Positions 7,358 to 60,840 of a stretch of 64,000 nucleotides of DNA are shown here, one piece after another. Below the pieces are notes generated by a model. That model was not told where the DNA came from and did not search any database. It saw nothing but the letters and a program-made list of their open reading frames with translations. Where the stretch lies: the sequence record OL656110.1; one strand, written 5' to 3'. The number at the start of each line of letters is the position of its first letter. The stretch's first letter is position 1. This stretch comes from Escherichia phage vB_EcoM-RPN242. A program made the position numbers and the translations under genes.

Positions 7358-7846
7358 ATGATGCTGTTAATGAGCGTTCCACAGAACAAGATGACCCCTG
7401 CAACAGAGGGTAAGAATCACTTCAACATCTACAGCCGGAGCCAGACGGAACTCGGGCGCTTCCTCTCGCATTTTACCCATCATCCAATGACTACCCATGA
7501 ACATGGTGTGTTTAACTCCATGGAGGGGTACTGGTATTGGCTGAAGTATAGGGATGACAACCTGCGCCTGCTCGACGGTTATGAGGCCAAGCAATATGGA
7601 CAGGGATTGGCGGCTTCCCGCGTCATTGTCCTGGACCCGTCTACCGAAGAATTCAAGCGCGATATCCTATTTGCAACTAGTATGAAACTCCAGACAATGC
7701 CTGAACGTCTGAAGATCAGATTGGCGTACAGTCGCCTACCCCTGATCCATGCATATGTTCAGAACGGGAAATACAGTTTTCAAAACTCTATGGACTATAT
7801 CATTGCCCACATTAATCGTCTCCGCATACAAGGAACTTTGAAATGA
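7358..7846 (+). CDS. NADAR-like (YbiA/DUF1768-like) domain protein, candidate ADP-ribosyl-nucleobase hydrolase
   Basis: motif series IYSRS, LGRFLSHF, FNSMEGYWYWLKY, YEAKQYGQG, SMKLQTMPERLKIRL matches my recollection of NADAR signature blocks (FYS.S / DFSNF / SEHYFQA.K); ATG 7358. Confidence 0.5.
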   Translation: MMLLMSVPQNKMTPATEGKNHFNIYSRSQTELGRFLSHFTHHPMTTHEHGVFNSMEGYWYWLKYRDDNLRLLDGYEAKQYGQGLAASRVIVLDPSTEEFKRDILFATSMKLQTMPERLKIRLAYSRLPLIHAYVQNGKYSFQNSMDYIIAHINRLRIQGTLK

Positions 7847-8424
7847 AATTTCTACACACTATCGTCGACACTTCTTATGACTGCACTGCTCATACCCCAG
7901 ACCGTTCGCCTGTGTTTGTTCTGAACAAACTAGGTGAAGAGATCTGTGAACTGTCTGATGTGTTTCATGGCATAGTATCTTCCGAGCCGTTGAATGGCGA
8001 AGTTGCTGATGTCATTATCTCTGCTATTGACCTTCTGTACGTCATGGATTATGACGACGTCCAAATGCGCGGCTCTCTGAACAAGGCCGAAATGATCGAC
8101 TCTGTCATCAACCACATGGCGACAGTGAACGATATTTCTTCTAATCTGTTGGAAGAAGACTGGTTCCGTCTGATTGATCGTGATCCTCAAAAGCATCTGA
8201 ATCTTATCCATCATTATCATGGCCGGATTATCCGATTGTGCAACCAACCTTATCGCAGTCAAGACAGATTGGATCATCTTGTCAATGACCTAATCAAGCA
8301 TGTTGCGCGCATGGGGTGTGGGGAAGGGGCGATCCGTGGATCCTCTTTGATGGCCACTCGCATTAAAGTGGAGCACGCTATTGAACACAAGGTTGAAAAG
8401 TGGCGTAGCAAATTTGGCTTATGA
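7843..8424 (+). CDS. MazG-like all-alpha NTP pyrophosphohydrolase (putative)
   Basis: LNKLGEEICELSDV resembles the MazG E-E-x-x-E metal-binding helix; ATG overlaps upstream stop (ATGA). Confidence 0.4.
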   Translation: MKFLHTIVDTSYDCTAHTPDRSPVFVLNKLGEEICELSDVFHGIVSSEPLNGEVADVIISAIDLLYVMDYDDVQMRGSLNKAEMIDSVINHMATVNDISSNLLEEDWFRLIDRDPQKHLNLIHHYHGRIIRLCNQPYRSQDRLDHLVNDLIKHVARMGCGEGAIRGSSLMATRIKVEHAIEHKVEKWRSKFGL

Positions 8425-9251
8425 AATACGAAATCATCTTAGACGCTCTCATACAGAGAGCAATACAGAGAGGTAAAATGGATGGCGTTTATCAAGAACG
8501 CCACCATATAATCCCTGTGTGCTTGGGTGGCACTAACCACTTCTCTAATCTTGTATGGTTGACACCAGAAGAACATTATGTCGTACATCACCTACTTTGG
8601 AGAACAAAACCACTCAACCCCGGTATCAGGAAGGCATGGACTGGGATGAACAACATGTCTAGGAACAACAAAGAGTTTGGGGAATTGAGGAGAAATAATT
8701 CCGCCAGAATGAAAGAAGTGATGTCATCTGATGAACAAAAGGAACGTTGTCGTAAGCAATCCAAGAAAAACTCATTGAACCCAGAAGTACAGAAGAAACG
8801 TGCGGATAGCTTGAGAGGTTACACTTGGAATGACGAATCAAGGCGCAGGTTGTCAAAATCCAGGAAAGGGATACCACACTCCGAAGCACACAAAGCCAAT
8901 CTTACCAAATCAGTCACCGAACGGATGAGGCGACCAGAAGAAAGGGAGAGGTATTCTGCTATGTGGCGCCAGAACAATCCCATGAATAACATACAACCTT
9001 GGGAACACCCGACTGTCGTAAAGACGGGTAAATCCCGACAATGGCTCTTGGCTGGTGAATTCTTTGAATGGTGGTATAGTAACGGTGAAGACAAAGTGAA
9101 GAACCGTTATTGTTTAATGTTGAAAGAAACCGGGTTAAGCTCTGTTTGTTCTAAGGCCACAGCTCAAACTTGTATATCTAAATTTCAGAAAGGTTGGATA
9201 CCAAAAGAAGATCCCGCCTGGTTGAAATTTTACGGAGATAATAATGGTTGA
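8421..9251 (+). CDS. HNH homing endonuclease with NUMOD-like motifs
   Basis: HNH core HHIIPVCLGGTNHFSNLVWLTPEEHYVVH; repeated SRKG.PHSE-type motifs; paralogous to ORF 24783-25382; sits immediately upstream of topoisomerase gene. Confidence 0.75.
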   Translation: MKYEIILDALIQRAIQRGKMDGVYQERHHIIPVCLGGTNHFSNLVWLTPEEHYVVHHLLWRTKPLNPGIRKAWTGMNNMSRNNKEFGELRRNNSARMKEVMSSDEQKERCRKQSKKNSLNPEVQKKRADSLRGYTWNDESRRRLSKSRKGIPHSEAHKANLTKSVTERMRRPEERERYSAMWRQNNPMNNIQPWEHPTVVKTGKSRQWLLAGEFFEWWYSNGEDKVKNRYCLMLKETGLSSVCSKATAQTCISKFQKGWIPKEDPAWLKFYGDNNG

Positions 9252-11142
9252 TGTAAACAGAAAATACAAAAAGCTCTCACACATCGAGCATATACTCCTT
9301 CGCCCAGAGCGCCATCTAGGGAGTATCCGTTCTTCTGTCGGGATGGCTTGGGTATATGATCTCAGCAAAGACAAAGTTGTGTTTAAAGACAATTTTGAAT
9401 ATAACCCCGCTCTTATCAAACAGTTTGATGAAATCATCACCAACTGTGTTGACCACAGCAAGACCCCTGAGGGTAAATCCCTGACGGAAATCACCGTCAC
9501 AGTTTCCCCGATGAACGGTCAAATCATCGTTGCTGACAACGGGGGTATCCCTGTGGTCAAACATGAATCTGGTATGTGGTTGCCAGAAATGTTATTTTCA
9601 GAATTGTTTGCGGGATCGAACTTCAACGACGAAGACGAAGAGTACAACAACCAGAAGTCCGGTGGTCAGAATGGCGAAGGGGCGTCCCTCGTCAACGTGT
9701 TCTCCAAATGGTTCCGCATCACGACTAATGACGGCAAGAAGTCTTATACTCAGACGTTTGAAGACAACATGAGCAAGAAATCTAACCCAGTCATCAGCAA
9801 CGTGAACAGTCCCGGCACATCCATCGCCTGGATCCCTGACTATGCTCGCCTGGGCGTCAAAGGACTTGACCAGAACAACCTGCTGATGATCTATCGCCGC
9901 GCGTTTGAAGTGGCTGCGTGTAACCCGCGCCTGAAGATTGTTCTCAACGGGAAGCAAATCCGGATTGACCGCTTTGGCCACTTCGTTGATTACTTCCATG
10001 CTGGTTCGGCTGTTGACGAAACCGGGGATTGGTCTGTTGCTGTAGCCCCTTCATCCGGTACGTTCATGCACGCATCATACGTGAACTCTATTGCCACCCA
10101 CATCGGTGGTCCTCACGTTGATTATGTTGCCGACCAGATCGTGGCAGCGATTCGTCCCCAGCTGGTGAAGAAGTTCAAGACCGAGCTGAAACCTGCCATG
10201 ATCAAGAACCACATGTCCTTGTTCATCGCTGCCGACATCAACAACCCGCGCTTTGACAGCCAGACCAAGGAGCGCATGACCACTCCTGTCAGCCAGTTCG
10301 GTACGTCGTACAAGCCCAGTGATAAACTGATCCGCAAGGCGCTTGAGTTCGTTACGGCTGGTCTGAGCAAAGAACTGGCTTCCCTGCGCAATGAGCAGGA
10401 CGATGCTGAGTTTGAAAAGGCCAAGAAGGACATCAGCAAGCGGGATTATCGTGAGATTGAGAAGTATTACCCGGCGACCGCCCGTGGTGACCGCAGCGGA
10501 TGCTCCCTGTTGCTGACAGAGGGTGATAGTGCCTCCAATCCTATCCTGAATGCCCGCGACACCAAGAAGATCGGGTTGTTCCCGCTTCGTGGTAAGTTCA
10601 TCAACTGCCTGAACGCCCCGCGCTCAAAGGTGATGAACAATGAAGAGTTCAAGAACCTGTGTACGATCCACGGCGGCGCAGTGCCAGGCCAGCCCCTTGA
10701 TATCACCCGTTACCCACAGACTGTTGTGGCTACCGATGCGGACGATGATGGCATCCACATCCGTGGGTTGTTGATCACCCTGTATTGCACCTACTGGCCG
10801 GAGTACGTCCGTCAGGGCAGGCTGAAGCTCCTGCGCACCCCTTACATGCGTGTGTGGTGTGGTAAGGTGATGCATGAGTTCATGAACAACGCAGAGTATG
10901 AGGAGTTCCTGAAGACGCCTGATGCCAAGAAGATCACGAAGAAGAAATATCTGAAAGGTCTGGGTGGTAACAGCACTGAAGACTTCAAACGTATTCTAAA
11001 CAACCTGGATGCGTATACTACGACGGTCACGCTGGACGATGGCTATCAACAGTCACTGAAGAATGGCTTCGGTGATGAGGCCGCCGATTACCGCAAAACC
11101 TGGTTTAGCGATGTTTGCCTGTTTGAAACTGAGGATGAATAA
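9244..11142 (+). CDS. 39: DNA topoisomerase II large subunit (GyrB-like, fused gp39+gp60 equivalent)
   Basis: 632 aa; GHKL ATPase and TOPRIM-region motifs LLLTEGDSA, PRFDSQTKER; SD GGAGA. Confidence 0.9.
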   Translation: MVDVNRKYKKLSHIEHILLRPERHLGSIRSSVGMAWVYDLSKDKVVFKDNFEYNPALIKQFDEIITNCVDHSKTPEGKSLTEITVTVSPMNGQIIVADNGGIPVVKHESGMWLPEMLFSELFAGSNFNDEDEEYNNQKSGGQNGEGASLVNVFSKWFRITTNDGKKSYTQTFEDNMSKKSNPVISNVNSPGTSIAWIPDYARLGVKGLDQNNLLMIYRRAFEVAACNPRLKIVLNGKQIRIDRFGHFVDYFHAGSAVDETGDWSVAVAPSSGTFMHASYVNSIATHIGGPHVDYVADQIVAAIRPQLVKKFKTELKPAMIKNHMSLFIAADINNPRFDSQTKERMTTPVSQFGTSYKPSDKLIRKALEFVTAGLSKELASLRNEQDDAEFEKAKKDISKRDYREIEKYYPATARGDRSGCSLLLTEGDSASNPILNARDTKKIGLFPLRGKFINCLNAPRSKVMNNEEFKNLCTIHGGAVPGQPLDITRYPQTVVATDADDDGIHIRGLLITLYCTYWPEYVRQGRLKLLRTPYMRVWCGKVMHEFMNNAEYEEFLKTPDAKKITKKKYLKGLGGNSTEDFKRILNNLDAYTTTVTLDDGYQQSLKNGFGDEAADYRKTWFSDVCLFETEDE

Positions 11143-17036: not shown

Positions 17037-17351
17037 ATGACCCCATTAAAAGAAATGTATGAGCGTCTGGCTGAACTACAGGCGAAGGAAAAGCGCTTCT
17101 CAGAAGAAGAGACAGAGCTGTCCGAGCTGAACACTTTGATCGCCACTCGCGAGAAGTACCTGCAGCGCTACATTAATCACCCGCCGCGCATGGTAGACCG
17201 CGTCAGCACTATCATGGACCTGGATGAAGTTACTCCTGGCAAAGAAATCATTGCCAGGGAAGTCCACCAGATGGTCGCCATGGGTCAGATCTTTGGTCGT
17301 GCAGACCAAGACGACATGATCTTCCTCCTTGAAAAGAAACTGGTGATGTGA
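17037..17351 (+). CDS. hypothetical protein
   Basis: 104-aa ORF with SD AGAGGAA. Confidence 0.5.
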   Translation: MTPLKEMYERLAELQAKEKRFSEEETELSELNTLIATREKYLQRYINHPPRMVDRVSTIMDLDEVTPGKEIIAREVHQMVAMGQIFGRADQDDMIFLLEKKLVM

Positions 17352-17857
17352 TGGCTATCAAACCCCGTATGTTATTTGCGCATATGCGCTCGGCTCATGC
17401 ATACGCTCTGTCCAGCTATGCCCAGCGCCTGAAGGTCGGCTGTGTTATCGTTGACCCGCGTGTTGACCAGCCCCTGTCTATCGGTTGGAACGGGACTGCT
17501 CCTGGCGCTCCTAATGTCTGTGAGAAGGAAGTAGACGGTCAACTGGTATCGGTGGGTGTTATCCACGCCGAGGAGAATGCTCTGAGCAAACTCCCCCAGC
17601 ACACTGAAGACTGTTGTGGCCTGGTGATGTTTGTCACTCATAGTCCATGCCCAGAGTGCACCCGTCGTATTATCGACAGTGGCAAGATCGCTAAAGTGTT
17701 CTATGACCGACCATATCGTATCATAGACGGCATTATTGAAATGCTGGATGCTGGGATTGAAGTATATCGCATGGTCGATCAGATTGTTGTAGTCCAGCAT
17801 TCTGTGAAGAGCGGCGAACTGGTATCCACCCCTGTTTTAGTGAACCCTGACAAATAA
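17351..17857 (+). CDS. cd: dCMP deaminase
   Basis: zinc-binding deaminase motifs HAEENAL and PCPECTRRI; ATG 17351 overlaps upstream stop (TGATG). Confidence 0.85.
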   Translation: MAIKPRMLFAHMRSAHAYALSSYAQRLKVGCVIVDPRVDQPLSIGWNGTAPGAPNVCEKEVDGQLVSVGVIHAEENALSKLPQHTEDCCGLVMFVTHSPCPECTRRIIDSGKIAKVFYDRPYRIIDGIIEMLDAGIEVYRMVDQIVVVQHSVKSGELVSTPVLVNPDK

Positions 17858-31757: not shown

Positions 31758-32820
31758 GGTCCATTTGCTCCAGCATGTTACCAGGCATAACAGTACCGTT
31801 AGAAACACCGAACATTTTCTTCACGTCATCGGCGAAGTTGACATTCTCCAGCAGCGGATACCAGAAATCATCATCCATCTGACGCTTCTGATATTTCTTT
31901 TCCTTCTCAGGATCGAAACCACCCTTGGCTGTACGCACATACCAACCGGAAGACGGCATATCAACATAACCCAGAGCACGAGCGATCTCAAGCAGGCCGC
32001 TCCAGCGATCAATACCACCGTTGTACAGTACCGTCACAGGGAGCTTGGCTTTCTCTTTGACATGGCGACCTTTCATGATGCTTATGTTGAAGTTCCAACC
32101 CAGCAGATCTTTGTCTTCCTTCACCTGAGAACGGGTGATAAACCAGATCAAGTTGGAGGATAAGAAGCCCTGTTTGCCGCCTTTGATGTTAGGCTCGGCA
32201 TATTGGTTGCCGATCTCATCGTAATAGGAGTTGATCCAAACACACACGAGATTTTTGCTGTTGATTTCGGGAGTCATGACACGCCAGAAGCTGTTAAGGG
32301 CACGGGCGCGGGTCATGTCCTGAGTGTCGTTCCCTTTGATCGCATCTTCAACTTCCTTGGTGGAGGGAAGTTGGCTGATAGAGTCGATGAAGATTATAAC
32401 ATGGTCGCCTTTCTTGACTTCCTGTAGGATCTGCAGCAAGCGGATCTTGGTCTGTTCAACGTTGTCGATCGGTACGTACAGGACGCGGTCCATGTCAATG
32501 CCCATAGAGGTCCAGTAATCGGCGTTGGCACCCTTTTCTGAGTCAGCAAATACACAGATAGCGTCAGGGAACTTGTCCATGTACGCCTTGACGTCCACCA
32601 GACCGAACATCGTTTTGAAGGTACGGGAATCACCCACCATCATCTTGATACCGGAGATCAGACCGCCGTCAATACGCCCAGACCATGCGATATCGATCAG
32701 GGGAATACCAGTAGAACAGATGATAGACGGTTCCAGAGCGTCGGATTTGGACAGCACTGAAGCCTGGTCATCGTGTTTCTTAGCAACCTTCAGCATGCGG
32801 TCCATTAATGAACTGGCCAT
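31735..32820 (-). CDS. uvsX: RecA-like recombinase UvsX
   Basis: 361 aa; clear similarity pattern to T4 UvsX (DSRTFKTMFGL, VIIFIDSISQL, KGRHVKEKAKL); SD GAGGAA. Confidence 0.9.
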   Translation of the reverse strand: MASSLMDRMLKVAKKHDDQASVLSKSDALEPSIICSTGIPLIDIAWSGRIDGGLISGIKMMVGDSRTFKTMFGLVDVKAYMDKFPDAICVFADSEKGANADYWTSMGIDMDRVLYVPIDNVEQTKIRLLQILQEVKKGDHVIIFIDSISQLPSTKEVEDAIKGNDTQDMTRARALNSFWRVMTPEINSKNLVCVWINSYYDEIGNQYAEPNIKGGKQGFLSSNLIWFITRSQVKEDKDLLGWNFNISIMKGRHVKEKAKLPVTVLYNGGIDRWSGLLEIARALGYVDMPSSGWYVRTAKGGFDPEKEKKYQKRQMDDDFWYPLLENVNFADDVKKMFGVSNGTVMPGNMLEQMDHVINTSE

Positions 32821-33347
32821 TTCACTTCCTCTTTATTGTTGATCGTCGTTAATAATTCTACACCCATAACCTTCTGGGACAAAATGTTAACCGCCTCTTG
32901 GATGCTCTTCAGGGACATTGTCTCAACAAGTGACGATGCGTCATTATGCCGGTCGGTTAGGTACATATTGCGCAGATTGTTGTAGTTCGTGCGGTTGATG
33001 CACGCAGTGTTCAGTGCTATATTCAGGATATACATCATCTGTTCAATGGTTACATCCTTTGGCATAGCGTGGATGTAATAGATCGAGCCTTCAAAATAGA
33101 CGTCTACCAGTTCATCTGGTATCTTGATGCCACCACCGGCATACTCTTCGATCATCCTGAACAGAGACTCTGGTTGCTCGCTGGCGATCTTATGCGTAAC
33201 AGTCGCCGAAAGACCGTCGCCTGGTTTAACAGGCCTGTTGTATTCAGTAAGGAATACATTATGTCCGCCGCCGATGATGTGCTCGGCGAATTTGGAGGAT
33301 GCCTGAGCAGCGTTCTCCGCATGGTATGAAACGACGACTGTAAACAT
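32805..33347 (-). CDS. hypothetical protein at the T4 beta-glucosyltransferase position
   Basis: 180-aa ORF; TAATG-coupled to the downstream nucleotide-modification operon. Confidence 0.5.
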   Translation of the reverse strand: MFTVVVSYHAENAAQASSKFAEHIIGGGHNVFLTEYNRPVKPGDGLSATVTHKIASEQPESLFRMIEEYAGGGIKIPDELVDVYFEGSIYYIHAMPKDVTIEQMMYILNIALNTACINRTNYNNLRNMYLTDRHNDASSLVETMSLKSIQEAVNILSQKVMGVELLTTINNKEEVKWPVH

Positions 33348-33901
33348 TAGAACTCCAGGGTCAGAGGGGTTTCTGCGGACTTATCGTAATCCGCGCCACC
33401 AGCAGCACGCAGGCGATTGCGATCGTTCTTGCGTTTGTGTGCCAATATGTAAGTCTCAATGTCGATCTCCATATAAGAACACGCAGACGACAGGAAGAAC
33501 ATGAGAGTCTCAACGCAAGGATCGTTCATGAATTGCCCAAGGCGGTACGTAACATTGCGATGCCCTACAACACCCAAAGCAGATGGGGTGAATTCGCGAT
33601 TACTAAGGACTTCAAATTCTTCTTCGATCTCACCTTTGGTGCGGTCCACAAGGATGAAGCACAACATGAAGTGTACCACGTCCACCAGTTCATAAACTGC
33701 GTTCGTATGGTCAAACCCGATGTCGTTGCCATAGACCTTCCAGTCACGGGTGGTTTCATCAAGGAACTCTGCCCACTCACGATAGATGGAGTTGATGACT
33801 GCGTTCTGACTCCATACATTCTTCCACTCTTCCCCAAAGTAGGCCACGTTGGTGGCCTTTTGGAGTTCGAGCAGGCTTTTGATATGTCCTGCTGTGATCA
33901 T
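33347..33901 (-). CDS. all-alpha dimeric dUTPase/dCTPase-family NTP pyrophosphatase (gp56-like), putative
   Basis: 184 aa; conserved acidic/aromatic helix segments typical of dimeric dUTPase family as recalled; ATGA-coupled upstream of dNMP kinase. Confidence 0.5.
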   Translation of the reverse strand: MITAGHIKSLLELQKATNVAYFGEEWKNVWSQNAVINSIYREWAEFLDETTRDWKVYGNDIGFDHTNAVYELVDVVHFMLCFILVDRTKGEIEEEFEVLSNREFTPSALGVVGHRNVTYRLGQFMNDPCVETLMFFLSSACSYMEIDIETYILAHKRKNDRNRLRAAGGADYDKSAETPLTLEF

Positions 33902-34467
33902 TTACGTTCTCCGTAGAATTTAACGAACGGTTCCCAACCATCAAATGGATTGAGGAATTCGTAGTCCACTTTCATTTGGTCAATGAAAGCCTCTATATCG
34001 TCCTCTATGATACCAGCACGGTCGGCCTTTGAAATACGGGTGATAGGACATTTCGTACTCAGCGCCCATTCATATTCCTGAGGGGTACGCAGATCGCTCA
34101 CGATATAATGGACGTGGGGGTTCTGCTCTACCAGAGGAAGCTGGAAGCGCTTGAAGAATGCCAGGAACAGATCGGGTTGTACGTAACGCAAGCCCGTATC
34201 GCTGCCTAGATGAAGCCAGATCTGCCGTGGAGTTAAGCCCTTGGGGTTATCAGGGTGGGTGTAAGGAACGTCCTTCACGGCATCCTCTACCTCCGCTGGG
34301 AGCCATGGGTAGATGTAGTTGGCTACACGGCGCAGTTCATCAGAGAAAGAAAGGCGCTGTATGTCCATATCACCCTGTAAGTGGTGATAACTGATCAGGG
34401 ACTCCAAACAGAAGTCCTTACCGGAGCGTTTGCGCCCCGTAAAGAATTCAAGATTTGGGTACATCAT
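33898..34467 (-). CDS. 1: deoxynucleoside monophosphate kinase (T4 gp1-like)
   Basis: P-loop FTGRKRSGKD matches T4 gp1 LSGVKRSGKD. Confidence 0.8.
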   Translation of the reverse strand: MMYPNLEFFTGRKRSGKDFCLESLISYHHLQGDMDIQRLSFSDELRRVANYIYPWLPAEVEDAVKDVPYTHPDNPKGLTPRQIWLHLGSDTGLRYVQPDLFLAFFKRFQLPLVEQNPHVHYIVSDLRTPQEYEWALSTKCPITRISKADRAGIIEDDIEAFIDQMKVDYEFLNPFDGWEPFVKFYGERK

Positions 34468-35510
34468 ACTACACCTTCCAGGAACTTAGGATCAACGATC
34501 TTGCGGTCAACCGGAGAATGGGTGAGCGCGGTGTTCAAGCCATGATCCTGAATCAGGTCCAGGTTAATGAGCTTTTCGTTCAGTTTGCAGTGCAGACAGT
34601 ACGCCATCTGTACAATCAGGCCGCGATCCGCATCGTATTCCTTCAGGTGGGCGACCACAGTTTCCCAAGGGCTGCCGATATCACAGTGATGAAGCACGCC
34701 AGTGAACAGATTGCGGATATGGTTCTGGTTGGTCACGTTCTTGAAGTGAATCATGGAGTTGATGAACCCAGCTTCTACTTTGGTGTCCTTCGTGATCTTT
34801 CCCAGCTGCTTCTGGCTGACTTCATTGTTGTAGTAATGAAGATTGTTAGAGAATAGCTTGTACTGACCGACATCAACATCCAGCACCCGAGCAATCACTT
34901 CCTGAAGAATAGAGAACTCAATGAAGTTGATTGAACTCATCCCCCACAGAACATCCTGTGAGCGATTGATGACCGTCAGGTTCAGACGACCTTCAACGAT
35001 GGCGAACAACAGAGCCAGGTTACACACCATGTCCTTAGTCTTCGCTTCGCCGCTCTCGCTGAACTTCGCCAGACCAGCATCCGAATCTAGAGCCGGGTCA
35101 TAGATGGTGAGGTACGCCTGGCGAGTGTTTGGGTTCTTGCGCAGGCGGTTAATAACGCTATCCAGCTGGCCATGGGCGTACAGACGCGGACCATAAGCAG
35201 CTCGCCATGTTACCCCATCATCCGAAAAGTTAGCAGCGCGAGGCAATACGCGTGACAGGAACTTTATGTCGTTGCGGCCTGACAACACCCAGAAGGTCTC
35301 GCCGATGGCAGCGATAGCCGATGAGTTGCGACCTTCAATAGAGAGCCAGCGGTCACGGATGTCGGCGACGGTTATGGTCACGCCATCAAGGAAGCGGGTG
35401 CTATCAGTATTGATTTCAGCATTACCAGGATCAGATTCGATCCCGAATTCACGGATAGCCAAGACAGCCTGCTTCAGCATGTCATTGTTGTTAATTGCTT
35501 TGATTTCCAT
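34464..35510 (-). CDS. thymidylate synthase-family enzyme, uracil-type (TS or dUMP hydroxymethylase)
   Basis: TS motifs GETFWVLSGRND, NPNTRQAYLTIYDP, catalytic Cys in KDMVCNLALLF, RSQDVLWGMSSINFIEFSIL, LHYYNNE (Asn as in dUMP-specific enzymes); ~80-aa C-terminal extension. Confidence 0.8.
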   Translation of the reverse strand: MEIKAINNNDMLKQAVLAIREFGIESDPGNAEINTDSTRFLDGVTITVADIRDRWLSIEGRNSSAIAAIGETFWVLSGRNDIKFLSRVLPRAANFSDDGVTWRAAYGPRLYAHGQLDSVINRLRKNPNTRQAYLTIYDPALDSDAGLAKFSESGEAKTKDMVCNLALLFAIVEGRLNLTVINRSQDVLWGMSSINFIEFSILQEVIARVLDVDVGQYKLFSNNLHYYNNEVSQKQLGKITKDTKVEAGFINSMIHFKNVTNQNHIRNLFTGVLHHCDIGSPWETVVAHLKEYDADRGLIVQMAYCLHCKLNEKLINLDLIQDHGLNTALTHSPVDRKIVDPKFLEGVV

Positions 35511-36169
35511 CAGATACTCCCAAAATCACGACAGAGGAATGCCATCACAGCCTGGTCTACTGTTAGGCCGTGAGACTTCATCATACCCGCAGCCACCGTA
35601 GGGAACAAGTCTTTATGTCGTTGACGATGGTCATGAACTCTCTCCCACTTCTCGACCACCAGACTTTCATTGAAGTCCACACCACCGTTACGTGATTTAA
35701 CGCGGGAGATACACGTTTCAAGGGGAGTGTCCATAAAGAGCACAACCAATTCACGTGGTGGGCGTGTCAGGCGGGGGATCCAAGAACTCAATAATGTTGA
35801 TGGAATGATACCTTCGAAAATCACATCATATTTCAAGTATTCTGGTTGGTCAGCAATAGACAACGCGAACAACATCTGCTCAGTGTCCTTCAGGGAATCA
35901 ACCCCCTTGGACTTCGACTTGTCATATTTACCGATACAGACCACGTTGAACGAAGGACAGACAGTCAGCATGACCTTGCCGTTATGGGTCACGACATACG
36001 CCTGAGGATCCCTCTCCGCCAGCTGAGAAGGCACAGTGGATTTACCGCTACCATTGGAGCCTTTGACGTAGTAGATTTGCCCTCGTGCTGGGTAGATCCC
36101 CTTTACGACGGGTGGTTTAAAGAATGTGTGGACGGGGCGCTTCATCAGCCCCTTCAGGGAGTAGGACAT
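35510..36169 (-). CDS. P-loop kinase, candidate 5-hydroxymethyl-dU DNA kinase
   Basis: ATG 36169 with SD GGAG (track start is TTG); Walker A GSNGSGKST; stop overlaps TS-family start (TGATG). Confidence 0.55.
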   Translation of the reverse strand: MSYSLKGLMKRPVHTFFKPPVVKGIYPARGQIYYVKGSNGSGKSTVPSQLAERDPQAYVVTHNGKVMLTVCPSFNVVCIGKYDKSKSKGVDSLKDTEQMLFALSIADQPEYLKYDVIFEGIIPSTLLSSWIPRLTRPPRELVVLFMDTPLETCISRVKSRNGGVDFNESLVVEKWERVHDHRQRHKDLFPTVAAGMMKSHGLTVDQAVMAFLCRDFGSI

Positions 36170-36244
36170 AAACTGCTCCAATAAACAAAAGGAGCTGCTA
36201 TTATAGCAGCCCCTTCATCTATTGAACAGTTTCTGAACTTAAAT

Positions 36245-37081
36245 CTACACAGCTTTCGCTTCAGCCAGAGCCTGTGGAAGCCATTCATTGATCGCCTTAA
36301 CCAGAGACTCAGCATCAGACTCTTTGATCTTCTGACGTTTGGTGAAGGACTTACCGTTCACGTACAGACTGAAGCCCCAGCCACCGGAAACGATAGGCGC
36401 AACGTCGACATACGTATTGGTGCGGGCGTGAAGGTTTTCAGGGTTAGCCAGTTCGGTGACCGGGAACTGGAACCAACGCATGTCTGGGTTCACGTAGCTC
36501 AGGAACACGCCGGGAACAACACCAGCTTCAATCGCCGCCAAGACCGGACCGTGATTAGAAGCGCGAGCCAAGTCAACCATTTCCTCACGTTTGGTGTGAC
36601 GGCGTTTACGCTCTACCAGCGCCGCCTGCGGGGTCAGGGTCTTACCCTTCGATGCTTCTTTCAACATAGAAGACGCCAAGGAACCGATTTTCGCGTCGGA
36701 CGGCTGATTGCCTTCTTCCAGCGCCGCGTTGACTGCATCTTCAACCGCGTCTACCGGGGCGTCGGACACTGGGGCTTCACATGCATCGGCAGAGATCGGT
36801 GCTTCAGCATCAATGGTTTCAGCGACTTTCAGCGATACTTCAGCTTGGGCTTGCTCTTGGGCTTGCGCCAGAGCCTGCTGAGTTTCTTCCTTCTCTTCGG
36901 CGCTCAGACCTTCAATCAGTTCGAAGCCGTTGGCAGCCTGAAGAACACCTTCAACCATACGGCGCAGGGTAACGTTTCCGATGATCAGACCTGCTTCTTT
37001 GATTTCAGCCTGAATAGCAGCAACGTCTTTGCCTTCAATTTCAATTTTGGTTCCAGAATCCACATGAAGAATATATGACAT
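36245..37081 (-). CDS. hypothetical protein with acidic Ala/Glu-rich linker
   Basis: 278-aa ORF; low-complexity central region; conserved-looking C-terminal domain. Confidence 0.5.
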   Translation of the reverse strand: MSYILHVDSGTKIEIEGKDVAAIQAEIKEAGLIIGNVTLRRMVEGVLQAANGFELIEGLSAEEKEETQQALAQAQEQAQAEVSLKVAETIDAEAPISADACEAPVSDAPVDAVEDAVNAALEEGNQPSDAKIGSLASSMLKEASKGKTLTPQAALVERKRRHTKREEMVDLARASNHGPVLAAIEAGVVPGVFLSYVNPDMRWFQFPVTELANPENLHARTNTYVDVAPIVSGGWGFSLYVNGKSFTKRQKIKESDAESLVKAINEWLPQALAEAKAV

Positions 37082-58119: not shown

Positions 58120-60840
58120 TCAGATCTTAATCTGCATGTTGCCACCCAGGGACTGCTCGTACTCGCTGTATGCGCCTTCCCCGTAGTCTCGTGCCCACTG
58201 GTCAGACTGCTGGGCGCTATCCAGAGTCATCAGGTTTGGTTCAGTCGGGTTGTAACCCTTGGACTTCGCATCCCGGTACAGAGTCTGCAGGTACTGGTTG
58301 GCGCGGTCAATCTGAGATTTGAACTCGCGATATGCCCCTTCAGTTGTGTTGCGGCGGAAGGTGATATCCCAGTCCACGTTCAGAGTCTGACCATCACGGC
58401 TTGCATAGATCTGCCAATCCAGGTCGCGGCCTTTTGGTGCGTTGTCGCGGATGGAGTCGGCGTATGCCGCAAGGTCGGCACCAGTCTTCTTCGCAGTACT
58501 CGACTCTTTCTCCAGTCTCTCGGTTTCTTTGGACAGGATACCCAACATAAATTCATTAGTGCGGCGATCCGCCATGTCGTACCCGCGCCAAAGGACTGAA
58601 CCGTTGTTGTCAACAGAAATGTCGTCCAAAAATACTTGTTTCGGATTATACGACGTGCTTTTCAGAGTTTGTATATTCCGAGATATCATTTCCATTTTAG
58701 AAGAAATTTCATCGATCACGGCCTGAACAATATCTTTCTTCAAAGTAAGTTCATATGTCTTCGGATTGTTCAGGGTACGACCTTTATTGGATACAATAGG
58801 CGTGATCGCCACTTTGCCTTTGTCGTAGTAATAGGTCACATTCGTGGTCAATACAGCACCATCATACTTCCCAGTTTTCGGGAAATTGACGCCAGACCAA
58901 GTGATGGACATACCGTTGACAGTCTCACCAAACACCATGGCGTTGCTTGGTATATTCAGGGTTCCAGAGTTGACCAGATCAGCGCCTTGGGCATTCAGGT
59001 CGATAGAACCATAGATGGCCCCGGTAATACGATCTTTCAGCATCAGGGTCTTGTCGCCCTTCTCTGGGATGATTTCCAGCGGGTGCTTGCCACGCGGAGG
59101 TTCTTTGATGAGTTCCAGTAGAGCAGTTTTCCCTGGCTTCACACGATTCAGGACAGCGTCGGACACTGTCAGAGTCCAGTTTGCGGTTTCCACATAACCC
59201 CAGCCCCGAGAACGGCGAATGGCTTTGATAGGATATGGAGCGCTTGTTGGCACTGCGCTAATTTCCCATTTGCCAGTGTACTGGGTCTTGGCAACCTCAA
59301 AGATGGACGCAATTACCGCATTGGCGACGTCACGGGCGCTACCTTTGGCCACGTTCTCCTCTTCAGCAATTTCGCTGAAAACTGAGTATTGAACGAAACC
59401 AGCGAGGACGTTTGTGAAGTTGACAACGATAACCAACCCGCCTGCTGTCGTGTAACGACCAGCGCCCACACGACGGATGTTTTCACCAGGAAGAATAGAA
59501 GTGTCCAGCCCAACGTTGGTATCAATGATACCCAGAACACGAGCGATGAAACCACTGTTACGTAATTGATCAACACTGGTTGCACCCTCGGTCGAATCCG
59601 ATGCGGATTTAGACACTTTGTTCAACTTGATAGAGACAAGGGTTTCCCCGTTGACACCGATGATATCCCATTCAGTACCCTGCTCGTTCGAGATGCGAGC
59701 AGTCTTGCGCTTTGAATTGATGGCACCTTCGTAACGCCCGTTCTTGACTACAACAGAGGCTGTGGCAGCATCAGTAGCACTTGCTGCATTTGAAAAGTCT
59801 GGGTCAGAAATACTGATGTCGACGTCACCGTTTTGAGAACGCATGCGAACGCCGTTTTTGAATCGTTCCACGTTTACTTCTCGAGCACCAAGTCGTTTGG
59901 CATCAATAACAGCAGTTCCAGAACCGATAATGTTGGCTGGGTTATTTCTGTCTGAACTGTTTTGAGAACCTTTCCAAAATTTTGTGGACGCTGTGGTGAA
60001 ATCATTCAGGATACTGATAGGGACTTGTGGTAATTTCAACTGACGAGCAATGAAATCAGCACTTTGCCCACGCACAGGTTTCTCATTCATGTATGCGCCA
60101 ACATACACACCCGGCTCATTGTAGTGGGGAGCGATATTTGCCGTGTTCATGCGGCCTCTCTCCTTACCAGCCCATAACAACATGGGCTGATCTCCGTTTG
60201 AAGTTAATTTCCATCCGTTGGAATTATCAACAGAAGATGACACACCCACATCCGGAGTATTGTTCTGAACCGGAACGTCACCGACCTTGTCTGGATCATC
60301 CCAGGTGATACCCTGCATCTTCGGACCGTCGAATACCTGAGCCGGATCTTTACCCTTGCGGACCAGCCACACATAACCACGGTCAGGGACAGGCGCGTAG
60401 GTCAGGTCCATGACATTCAGTTTCTGTTTCAGGCCGGACTGGCGGATGATCTTAGGAATCAGGGTCATACCGCGATCCAGCGCTTTCTTCGAGAAGTTGA
60501 CAGCAAAGCCATCGATGGTTTTGCCCAGAGGAGTCGCCATGAATTGTTTGGTCGCTTCGATCATGGAAGCGATAACGCGCATTGGGTTCTTGAAGCGAGC
60601 GATGGCGTCAGGATAGACGGAGCCGCGCTTCTGGCCGATGAAAACCTGACGAACACTCTTACCCAGCCCCTGAGGGGTATAGAACTGAATACGGTATTCC
60701 TTTTCATCTTCGTCGACGAAGGTGAAGAACACATCGCCTGCGTTCTTCTTACCCATGGTCAGCTCATACGGAGCGGAGTTGAACGCTTCGTCCAACTGAT
60801 CTCTTTCCTGCATGAACTGGAGGAAACTTAGCTTTGACAT
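58120..60840 (-). CDS. large hypothetical protein (906 aa)
   Basis: long ORF with SD AGGAGA; no recognisable catalytic motif. Confidence 0.6.
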   Translation of the reverse strand: MSKLSFLQFMQERDQLDEAFNSAPYELTMGKKNAGDVFFTFVDEDEKEYRIQFYTPQGLGKSVRQVFIGQKRGSVYPDAIARFKNPMRVIASMIEATKQFMATPLGKTIDGFAVNFSKKALDRGMTLIPKIIRQSGLKQKLNVMDLTYAPVPDRGYVWLVRKGKDPAQVFDGPKMQGITWDDPDKVGDVPVQNNTPDVGVSSSVDNSNGWKLTSNGDQPMLLWAGKERGRMNTANIAPHYNEPGVYVGAYMNEKPVRGQSADFIARQLKLPQVPISILNDFTTASTKFWKGSQNSSDRNNPANIIGSGTAVIDAKRLGAREVNVERFKNGVRMRSQNGDVDISISDPDFSNAASATDAATASVVVKNGRYEGAINSKRKTARISNEQGTEWDIIGVNGETLVSIKLNKVSKSASDSTEGATSVDQLRNSGFIARVLGIIDTNVGLDTSILPGENIRRVGAGRYTTAGGLVIVVNFTNVLAGFVQYSVFSEIAEEENVAKGSARDVANAVIASIFEVAKTQYTGKWEISAVPTSAPYPIKAIRRSRGWGYVETANWTLTVSDAVLNRVKPGKTALLELIKEPPRGKHPLEIIPEKGDKTLMLKDRITGAIYGSIDLNAQGADLVNSGTLNIPSNAMVFGETVNGMSITWSGVNFPKTGKYDGAVLTTNVTYYYDKGKVAITPIVSNKGRTLNNPKTYELTLKKDIVQAVIDEISSKMEMISRNIQTLKSTSYNPKQVFLDDISVDNNGSVLWRGYDMADRRTNEFMLGILSKETERLEKESSTAKKTGADLAAYADSIRDNAPKGRDLDWQIYASRDGQTLNVDWDITFRRNTTEGAYREFKSQIDRANQYLQTLYRDAKSKGYNPTEPNLMTLDSAQQSDQWARDYGEGAYSEYEQSLGGNMQIKI

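What the first reader, a model, noticed from the sequence alone, without database searches (positions are those of the whole stretch)
35510..36169. Unusual P-loop kinase coupled to the TS-family gene (candidate DNA-base kinase)
This 219-aa protein has Walker A GSNGSGKST but is neither TK1-like (no GPMFSGKS) nor dNMP-kinase-like; gp1 is already present two genes away. Its stop overlaps the TS-family start (TGATG), implying stoichiometric co-expression. In hypermodifying phages a kinase phosphorylates 5-hmdU in DNA to activate it for substitution, and this gene fits that role.
Basis: inference. Interest (0 to 1): 0.7.

Follow-up and report, generated by a model that had tools for sequence, protein, structure and literature searches.

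The report
Known phage 5-hmdU DNA kinase

Summary
The 219-aa minus-strand ORF (35513..36169, stop at 35510..35512) is real. It carries the Walker A GSNGSGKST, and its stop overlaps the start of the thymidylate-synthase-family gene (TGATG). It matches Pfam PF18748, "5-hmdU DNA kinase", over the full length (E 3.6e-109, 363 bits against a cut-off of 27). It is 88% identical over all 219 residues to Salmonella phage ViI gp67. Purified ViI gp67 was among the kinases reported to give the same phosphorylated product, 5-phosphomethyl-dU, as M6 gp54 on hmU-containing DNA (Lee et al., NAR 2021). All 14 columns invariant among the tested kinases are kept. The window is an Agtrevirus-like Ackermannviridae phage, about 98% identical to Escherichia phage LHE287. 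That genome also encodes the other four ViI 5-NeOmdU pathway proteins at 84-92% identity, all outside the window. The gene order kinase, dUMP hydroxymethylase homolog, dNMP kinase, MazG-like NTPase is identical to ViI. Verdict: already known, low interest. One useful by-product: RefSeq and PHROGs systematically mislabel this family as "terminase small subunit".

The parts
35510..36169 (-). [quoted passage not shown] Walker A is at aa 37-45, the conserved EG at aa 119-120 and the conserved Arg at R156.
   Evidence: Pfam PF18748 E 3.6e-109; 88% identity to ViI gp67; invariant columns shared with five tested kinases.
34464..35510 (-). Thymidylate-synthase-superfamily protein, the presumed dUMP hydroxymethylase that supplies 5-hmdUMP. 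Its start overlaps the kinase stop by 1 nt.
   Evidence: Pfam PF00303 at 58 bits. It falls far below every NCBIfam TS equivalog cut-off (58 bits against 327). It is 77% identical to ViI Vi01_060c. Lee 2018 calls this gene dU hmt.
33898..34467 (-). dNMP kinase (T4 gp1-like), expected to convert 5-hmdUMP to the diphosphate. It has a 4-nt overlap with the TS-family gene.
   Evidence: PHROG 139 E 2.2e-47; ORF coordinates.
33347..33901 (-). MazG-like / dimeric dUTPase-family NTP pyrophosphohydrolase, probably for dNTP-pool clean-up. It has a 4-nt overlap with the dNMP kinase gene.
   Evidence: Pfam PF08761 E 6e-9; PHROG 173 E 3e-40.
17348..17857 (+). dCMP deaminase, which supplies dUMP for the hydroxymethylase.
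   Evidence: Pfam PF00383 at 59 bits; HAE...PCxxC motif visible in the translation.
36188..36216 (-). Terminator-like hairpin (13-bp stem followed by a T-run) 19 nt upstream of the kinase start.
   Evidence: sequence.

Best explanation
The gene encodes a 5-hydroxymethyl-2'-deoxyuridine DNA kinase (5-HMUDK), the ortholog of Salmonella phage ViI gp67, in an Agtrevirus-like Ackermannviridae phage. The neighbouring genes are inferred to build a 5-hmdUTP pool: dCMP deaminase makes dUMP, the TS-family dUMP hydroxymethylase makes 5-hmdUMP, and the dNMP kinase plus host NDP kinase make the triphosphate. The phage polymerase then incorporates hmU in place of T. After replication, the P-loop kinase transfers the gamma-phosphate of ATP to the 5-hydroxymethyl oxygen of hmU in the DNA polymer, giving 5-phosphomethyl-dU. 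This activity was shown for the 88%-identical ortholog and is inferred here. The phosphate is a leaving group. An aGPT-Pplase2 (ViI gp247 homolog) substitutes it with L-serine through the side-chain oxygen, and a PLP decarboxylase (gp226 homolog) converts O-serinyl-T to 5-(2-aminoethoxy)methyl-dU (5-NeOmdU). This modification protects phage DNA from many restriction endonucleases. Those downstream genes lie outside the window but are present in the near-identical genome LHE287.
For: A full-length match to Pfam PF18748 HMUDK_HMUD1 (E 3.6e-109, 363 bits, profile positions 1-195 of 196). 193 of 219 residues identical to ViI gp67 (YP_004327432) with no gaps. ViI gp67, gp243, M6 gp54, PhiW-14 gp37 and SP10 gp186 each produce the 418-u 5-PmdU nucleotide from hmU-containing SP8 DNA, and 32P from gamma-ATP is transferred to DNA (PMC8989533). 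All 14 invariant columns of an alignment of these tested enzymes are kept in the window protein: G37, G40, G42, K43, T45, P55, G80, Y82, G89, E119, G120, P149, R156 and G195. The gene order dUTPase-like, dnk, thyA-like, kinase is the same as in ViI, including the 1-nt overlap. The window is collinear with and about 98% identical to phage LHE287, which encodes gp226, gp243, gp247 and gp160 homologs at 92, 84, 89 and 87% identity. 5-NeOmdU has been measured chemically in ViI, CBA120 and another E. coli Ackermannviridae phage, phiHS2.
Against: No experiment exists on this exact protein or phage. The other pathway genes are not in the window, so their presence in the source genome is inferred from a 98%-identical relative. 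The nucleoside content of Agtrevirus DNA specifically was not found in the papers read. Single-sequence structure prediction failed (pLDDT 39), so there is no structural support beyond sequence.
Confidence: 0.95

Rival explanations
1. It is a nucleotide or polynucleotide kinase acting on free (d)NMPs or on DNA/RNA 5'-OH ends (thymidylate-kinase-like or T4 PNK-like), not on a base in DNA.
For: Weak P-loop-level similarity only: PHROG 761 thymidylate kinase at 28.7 bits and PHROG 505 PNK at 18.3 bits. A family profile touches the T4 PNK kinase domain 1ly1 (E 0.002) and guanylate kinase 2qor (E 0.005). Some GenBank records call it 'putative thymidylate kinase'.
Against: These scores are tiny beside 363 bits for HMUDK and 232 bits for PHROG 800. 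The 88%-identical ViI gp67 phosphorylates hmU within DNA. A dedicated dNMP kinase already sits two genes downstream.
Confidence: 0.02
2. It is the small terminase subunit, as RefSeq and PHROG 800 label it.
For: PHROG 800 is annotated 'terminase small subunit' (E 2.4e-68). RefSeq records of ViI, Ag3, CBA120, M6, PhiW-14 and SP10 carry that product name.
Against: The label sits on exactly the proteins shown biochemically to be 5-hmdU DNA kinases. The genomes have a separate T4 gp16-like small terminase next to the large terminase (ViI Vi01_162c; LHE287 125795..126496). The protein has a Walker A kinase motif and sits in a nucleotide-metabolism operon. The match covers only positions 4-220 of a 511-position PHROG profile.
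Confidence: 0.01
3. It is a genuine 5-HMUDK, but sub-functionalised relative to the second paralog (gp243-type). For example, it might feed a different branch such as hmU to T conversion with aGPT-Pplase1, or act on different sequence contexts, which would explain why only part of T is hypermodified.
For: Ackermannviridae keep two kinases that are only 22% identical and two aGPT-Pplases. Both kinases are active in vitro, but it is not known which are necessary. Modification is partial: about 40% in ViI and about 16% in phiHS2. No role for gp160 was found in the passages searched in the 2021 paper.
Against: There is no direct evidence for this. Both kinases make the same product on the same substrate in vitro.
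Confidence: 0.15

Closest known systems
Salmonella phage ViI gp67 (YP_004327432), 5-hmdU DNA kinase
   Same: 88% identical over the full length with no gaps. It has the same Walker A and conserved residues and the same neighbours (TS-homolog, dnk, MazG-like). The 1-nt stop/start overlap is also the same.
   Different: 26 substitutions, none in the columns invariant across tested kinases. The host phage belongs to Aglimvirinae (Agtrevirus-like) rather than Kuttervirus.
ViI gp243 (second 5-HMUDK paralog), M6 gp54, PhiW-14 gp37, SP10 gp186 N-terminal domain
   Same: Same Pfam family and the same demonstrated reaction, hmU-DNA plus ATP giving 5-PmdU plus ADP. They share the GxxGxGKxT, IGxY, EG and R motifs.
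   Different: Only 22-34% identical. gp243 and gp37 have C-terminal extensions, and SP10 gp186 is fused to an aGPT-Pplase. Their genomic neighbours differ, and the downstream chemistry gives other bases: 5-NedU, putrescinyl-T and glutamyl-T.
Generic P-loop kinases (T4 polynucleotide kinase kinase domain, guanylate/gluconate kinases, zeta toxin)
   Same: Walker A P-loop and the general kinase-fold signature at motif level.
   Different: All scores are marginal, for example Pfam AAA_33 below its cut-off (21.6 bits against 27), or E-values of only 0.002 to 0.014 against solved structures. These enzymes phosphorylate sugar hydroxyls or small molecules, not a nucleobase substituent in duplex DNA.

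Membership tests
5-hmdU DNA kinase (Pfam PF18748 HMUDK_HMUD1) | Sequence match above the curated Pfam gathering score, covering the whole domain | tested here: met
   363.2 bits against a cut-off of 27, E 3.6e-109, protein residues 14-208 on profile positions 1-195 of 196.
5-hmdU DNA kinase (Pfam PF18748 HMUDK_HMUD1) | Walker A P-loop and the other residues invariant among the biochemically validated members | tested here: met
   Alignment with ViI gp67, ViI gp243, M6 gp54, PhiW-14 gp37 and SP10 gp186N. All 14 invariant columns are present in the window protein: G37, G40, G42, K43, T45, P55, G80, Y82, G89, E119, G120, P149, R156 and G195.
5-hmdU DNA kinase (Pfam PF18748 HMUDK_HMUD1) | Co-occurrence with a dUMP hydroxymethylase (TS-superfamily) gene that supplies hmU | tested here: met
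   The TS-family gene is directly adjacent and overlapping. It falls below all canonical TS equivalog cut-offs. This association is described in Lee 2018.
5-hmdU DNA kinase (Pfam PF18748 HMUDK_HMUD1) | Co-occurrence in the genome with an aGPT-Pplase (DNA-glycosylase-fold transferase) that uses the phosphorylated base | tested here: inconclusive
   gp247 was not found in the window; gp160 was not searched against the window. Homologs of gp247 (89%) and gp160 (87%) are present in the 98%-identical, collinear genome LHE287, about 4 kb upstream of where the window begins and about 21 kb beyond its end.
5-hmdU DNA kinase (Pfam PF18748 HMUDK_HMUD1) | ATP-dependent phosphorylation of the 5-hydroxymethyl group of hmU in DNA | not testable with these tools
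   Shown for the 88%-identical ViI gp67 in PMC8989533. It is inferred for this protein.
Small terminase subunit (PHROG 800 / RefSeq label) | Being the TerS partner of TerL: located beside the large terminase gene and homologous to T4 gp16 | tested here: not met
   A separate gp16-like TerS lies beside TerL in ViI and LHE287. This protein sits in a nucleotide-metabolism operon and is a P-loop kinase.
dNMP / thymidylate / polynucleotide kinases | Significant match to those family models | tested here: not met
   There is no Pfam hit to TK, dNMP kinase or PNK models. The PHROG thymidylate kinase (28.7 bits) and PNK (18.3 bits) hits are far weaker than the HMUDK match, and the NCBIfam hits are far below their cut-offs.

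The most novel reading that the evidence does not exclude
The gp67-type kinase, translationally coupled to the dUMP hydroxymethylase, might not be redundant with the gp243-type paralog. It could have a distinct role, such as a different sequence-context preference. Alternatively it could feed the unexplained hmU to T branch together with the uncharacterised aGPT-Pplase1. Either role would set the fraction and pattern of thymines that become 5-NeOmdU.
Probability: 0.12. Interest if true: 0.5.

Novelty: already known. Interest (0 to 1): 0.1.

Why it matters
This gene marks the phage as a thymidine-hypermodifying virus, expected to carry 5-NeOmdU. That is relevant to restriction resistance, sequencing and cloning behaviour, and phage-therapy host range. 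It adds no new biology: the enzyme family, its reaction and its pathway are published, and the ortholog is 88% identical. The practical value is annotation. This gene should be called 5-hmdU DNA kinase, not 'hypothetical protein', 'putative thymidylate kinase' or 'terminase small subunit', as many database records have it.

Tried and rejected
- **Other ViI pathway genes in the window:** I searched for gp226, gp243 and gp247 by tblastn and found none. They turned up only in the related complete genome LHE287.
- **Solved structure of the family:** there is none. The single sequence and a six-member profile gave only P-loop-motif-level matches: ABC ATPases, the T4 PNK kinase domain, and guanylate and gluconate kinases.
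- **Structure prediction:** single-sequence AlphaFold2 gave mean pLDDT 39.4 and pTM 0.32. That is unusable, so no fold search was run.
- **Searches deliberately skipped:** Family assignment was already unambiguous.
- **NCBIfam:** it has no model for this family, only sub-threshold hits.
- **Iyer et al. 2013:** the prediction paper could not be retrieved from the library. It is cited only through Lee et al.
- **Rejected readings:** small terminase, thymidylate kinase and polynucleotide kinase, for the reasons given under the rival explanations.

Full report
**Observation.** The ORF exists as described. On the minus strand, an ATG at 36169 is preceded by GGAG 8 nt upstream and opens a 219-codon frame ending in TGA at 35512..35510. 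An in-frame TTG at 36181 would add four residues, but the ViI ortholog is annotated from the same MSYSLKGL start. The Walker A GSNGSGKST is at residues 37-45. The stop and the ATG of the downstream thymidylate-synthase-family gene (34464..35510) share base 35510, reading TGATG. Tight packing continues downstream. The TS-family and dNMP kinase genes overlap by 4 nt, as do the dNMP kinase and MazG-like genes. The MazG-like gene and the next ORF overlap by 1 nt. The gp1-type dNMP kinase is confirmed as the second gene downstream (PHROG 139, E 2.2e-47).

**Identity.** The protein matches Pfam PF18748 (HMUDK_HMUD1, "5-hmdU DNA kinase") end to end, with E 3.6e-109 and 363 bits against a gathering score of 27. 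All other Pfam hits are generic P-loop models below their cut-offs. tblastn finds it in 404 phage records. The closest are Ackermannviridae infecting Escherichia, Shigella, Salmonella, Dickeya and Klebsiella. The weaker hits (about 29-30% identity) include the Pseudomonas M6/YuA-like siphoviruses. Direct comparison with Salmonella phage ViI gp67 (YP_004327432, Vi01_061c) gives 193/219 identities with no gaps. The adjacent TS-family protein is 77% identical to its ViI counterpart. The gene order dUTPase-like, dnk, thyA-like, kinase is identical in ViI, including the 1-nt overlap.

**What is known about that family.**
- Lee et al. 2018 (PMC5889632) named the family 5-HMUDK, following a 2013 prediction by Aravind and co-workers.
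- They found 5-(2-aminoethoxy)methyl-dU (5-NeOmdU) in ViI DNA and reconstituted its synthesis from lysates expressing ViI gp67, gp160, gp226, gp243 and gp247.
- Lee et al. 2021 (PMC8989533) used purified M6 gp54 to show transfer of a single phosphate from ATP to the hydroxymethyl group of hmU in SP8 DNA.
- ViI gp67, ViI gp243, PhiW-14 gp37 and SP10 gp186 gave the same 5-phosphomethyl-dU product.
- ViI gp247 (aGPT-Pplase2) then transfers L-serine, and gp226 (a PLP enzyme) decarboxylates it to give 5-NeOmdU.
- A 2024 review states that the modification genes are conserved across Ackermannviridae.
- A 2026 preprint measured 5-NeOmdU by LC-MS in another E. coli Ackermannviridae phage.

**Membership tests done here.** I retrieved all five biochemically tested kinases from their genome records and aligned them with the window protein. 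Fourteen columns are invariant, and the window protein has all of them:
- the P-loop residues G37, G40, G42, K43 and T45
- P55, then G80 and Y82 of an IGxY motif, and G89
- E119-G120 at the end of a hydrophobic strand, which I read as the Walker-B-like position (my inference)
- P149, R156 in the R(V/I)KxR segment, and G195

The window protein is closest to gp67, then to the SP10 kinase domain (34%), and only 22% identical to the gp243 paralog. It is therefore the gp67-type ortholog, not the second kinase.

**Genomic context.** The window is collinear with and about 97-99% identical to Escherichia phage LHE287, positions 16.9-79.2 kb. Over the 5-kb region around the kinase it is 98.3% identical to phage vB_EcoM-ZQ1, classified in Ackermannviridae, Aglimvirinae. 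None of the three other ViI pathway proteins searched (gp226, gp243, gp247) is encoded in the window. LHE287 encodes homologs of gp226 (92%), gp243 (84%), gp247 (89%) and gp160 (87%). The gp243 and gp247 homologs lie only about 4-7 kb before the point where the window begins. Inside the window, the pre-replicative part of the pathway is visible:
- dCMP deaminase at 17348..17857 (PF00383)
- the TS-family enzyme, which scores far below every canonical thymidylate synthase equivalog model (58 bits against 327), consistent with a dUMP hydroxymethylase
- the dNMP kinase
- a MazG/dimeric-dUTPase-family NTPase

**Mechanism.** What follows is shown for orthologs and inferred here.
1. The phage builds a 5-hmdUTP pool, and its polymerase incorporates hmU in place of T.
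2. The kinase phosphorylates a subset of hmU bases in the DNA polymer.
3. The phosphate is displaced by serine, which is then decarboxylated to give 5-NeOmdU.

[quoted passage not shown] The TGATG overlap with the hydroxymethylase gene is conserved in ViI and LHE287 and is compatible with translational coupling. It does not by itself demonstrate stoichiometric expression.

**Rivals.**
- **PNK or NMP kinase:** this reading rests only on P-loop-level similarity and is contradicted by the ortholog's biochemistry.
- **Terminase small subunit:** this label is carried by PHROG 800 and by the RefSeq records of ViI, M6, PhiW-14, SP10 and many others. It is an annotation error. It sits on the very proteins shown to be DNA-base kinases, and each myovirus has a separate gp16-like TerS beside TerL.
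- **Sub-functionalisation:** the one open point is why Ackermannviridae keep two kinases only 22% identical and two aGPT-Pplases. The 2018 paper says it is not known which of the five genes are necessary. I found no role for gp160 in the passages searched in the 2021 paper. Sub-functionalisation of the gp67-type kinase is possible but unsupported.

**What failed.** No solved structure of the family exists in the PDB copy searched. Single-sequence AlphaFold2 gave pLDDT 39, so no fold comparison was attempted. I did not use the costly large-database searches because the assignment was already unambiguous.

**Verdict.** However, the gene is a routine ortholog of an experimentally characterised enzyme in a well-described pathway: already known, interest about 0.1.

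Noticed in passing
window 8421..9251 (+): A 276-aa ORF with an HNH-like motif (HHIIPV...NLVWLTPEEH; Pfam HNH_5 at 18 bits, below its cut-off). It is wedged between the ORF at 7843..8424 and the topoisomerase large-subunit gene at 9244..11142, overlapping both. This roughly 0.85-kb stretch is missing from the otherwise 97-99% identical phage LHE287, so it is probably a mobile homing-endonuclease insertion.
   Followed up: partly
window 36188..36216 (-): A strong terminator-like hairpin (13-bp stem, GAAGGGGCTGCTATAATAGCAGCTCCTTT, then TGTTTATT) lies only 19 nt upstream of the kinase start codon, between it and the upstream 278-aa gene of unknown function (36245..37081, PHROG 3905). How the kinase operon is transcribed, by read-through or from a promoter overlapping the hairpin, is not clear.
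   Followed up: no
L001:13204-13866 (ViI gp67), L008:21686-22249 (M6 gp54), L009:21348-22133 (PhiW-14 gp37), L010:17383-19296 (SP10 gp186): All four experimentally validated 5-hmdU DNA kinases are named 'terminase small subunit' in RefSeq, matching the label of PHROG 800. This is a systematic mis-annotation that propagates to many Ackermannviridae records. Other GenBank records call the same protein 'putative thymidylate kinase', 'putative kinase' or 'hypothetical protein'.
   Followed up: yes
L002:8511-9035 (phage vB_EcoM-ZQ1): In ZQ1 the kinase CDS is annotated as only 525 nt (174 aa), against 660 nt here. By my arithmetic from the CDS length, not checked against the ZQ1 sequence, that would start downstream of the Walker A motif, so it is probably a mis-called start.
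   Followed up: no
window 58477..59963: This stretch diverges sharply from LHE287: only a 270-nt piece aligns, at 81%, while the flanks are 97-98% identical. It falls inside the homolog of a 1124-aa hypothetical protein (LHE287 72687..76061). It may be a variable or recombined domain.
   Followed up: no
window 32805..33347 (-): The 180-aa ORF between UvsX and the MazG-like gene, in the same overlapping gene chain as the kinase, matches Pfam PF24021 'Phage ACT-like domain' over its full length (263 bits). An ACT-like, possibly ligand-binding, protein embedded in the hmU nucleotide-metabolism operon has no assigned role.
   Followed up: partly
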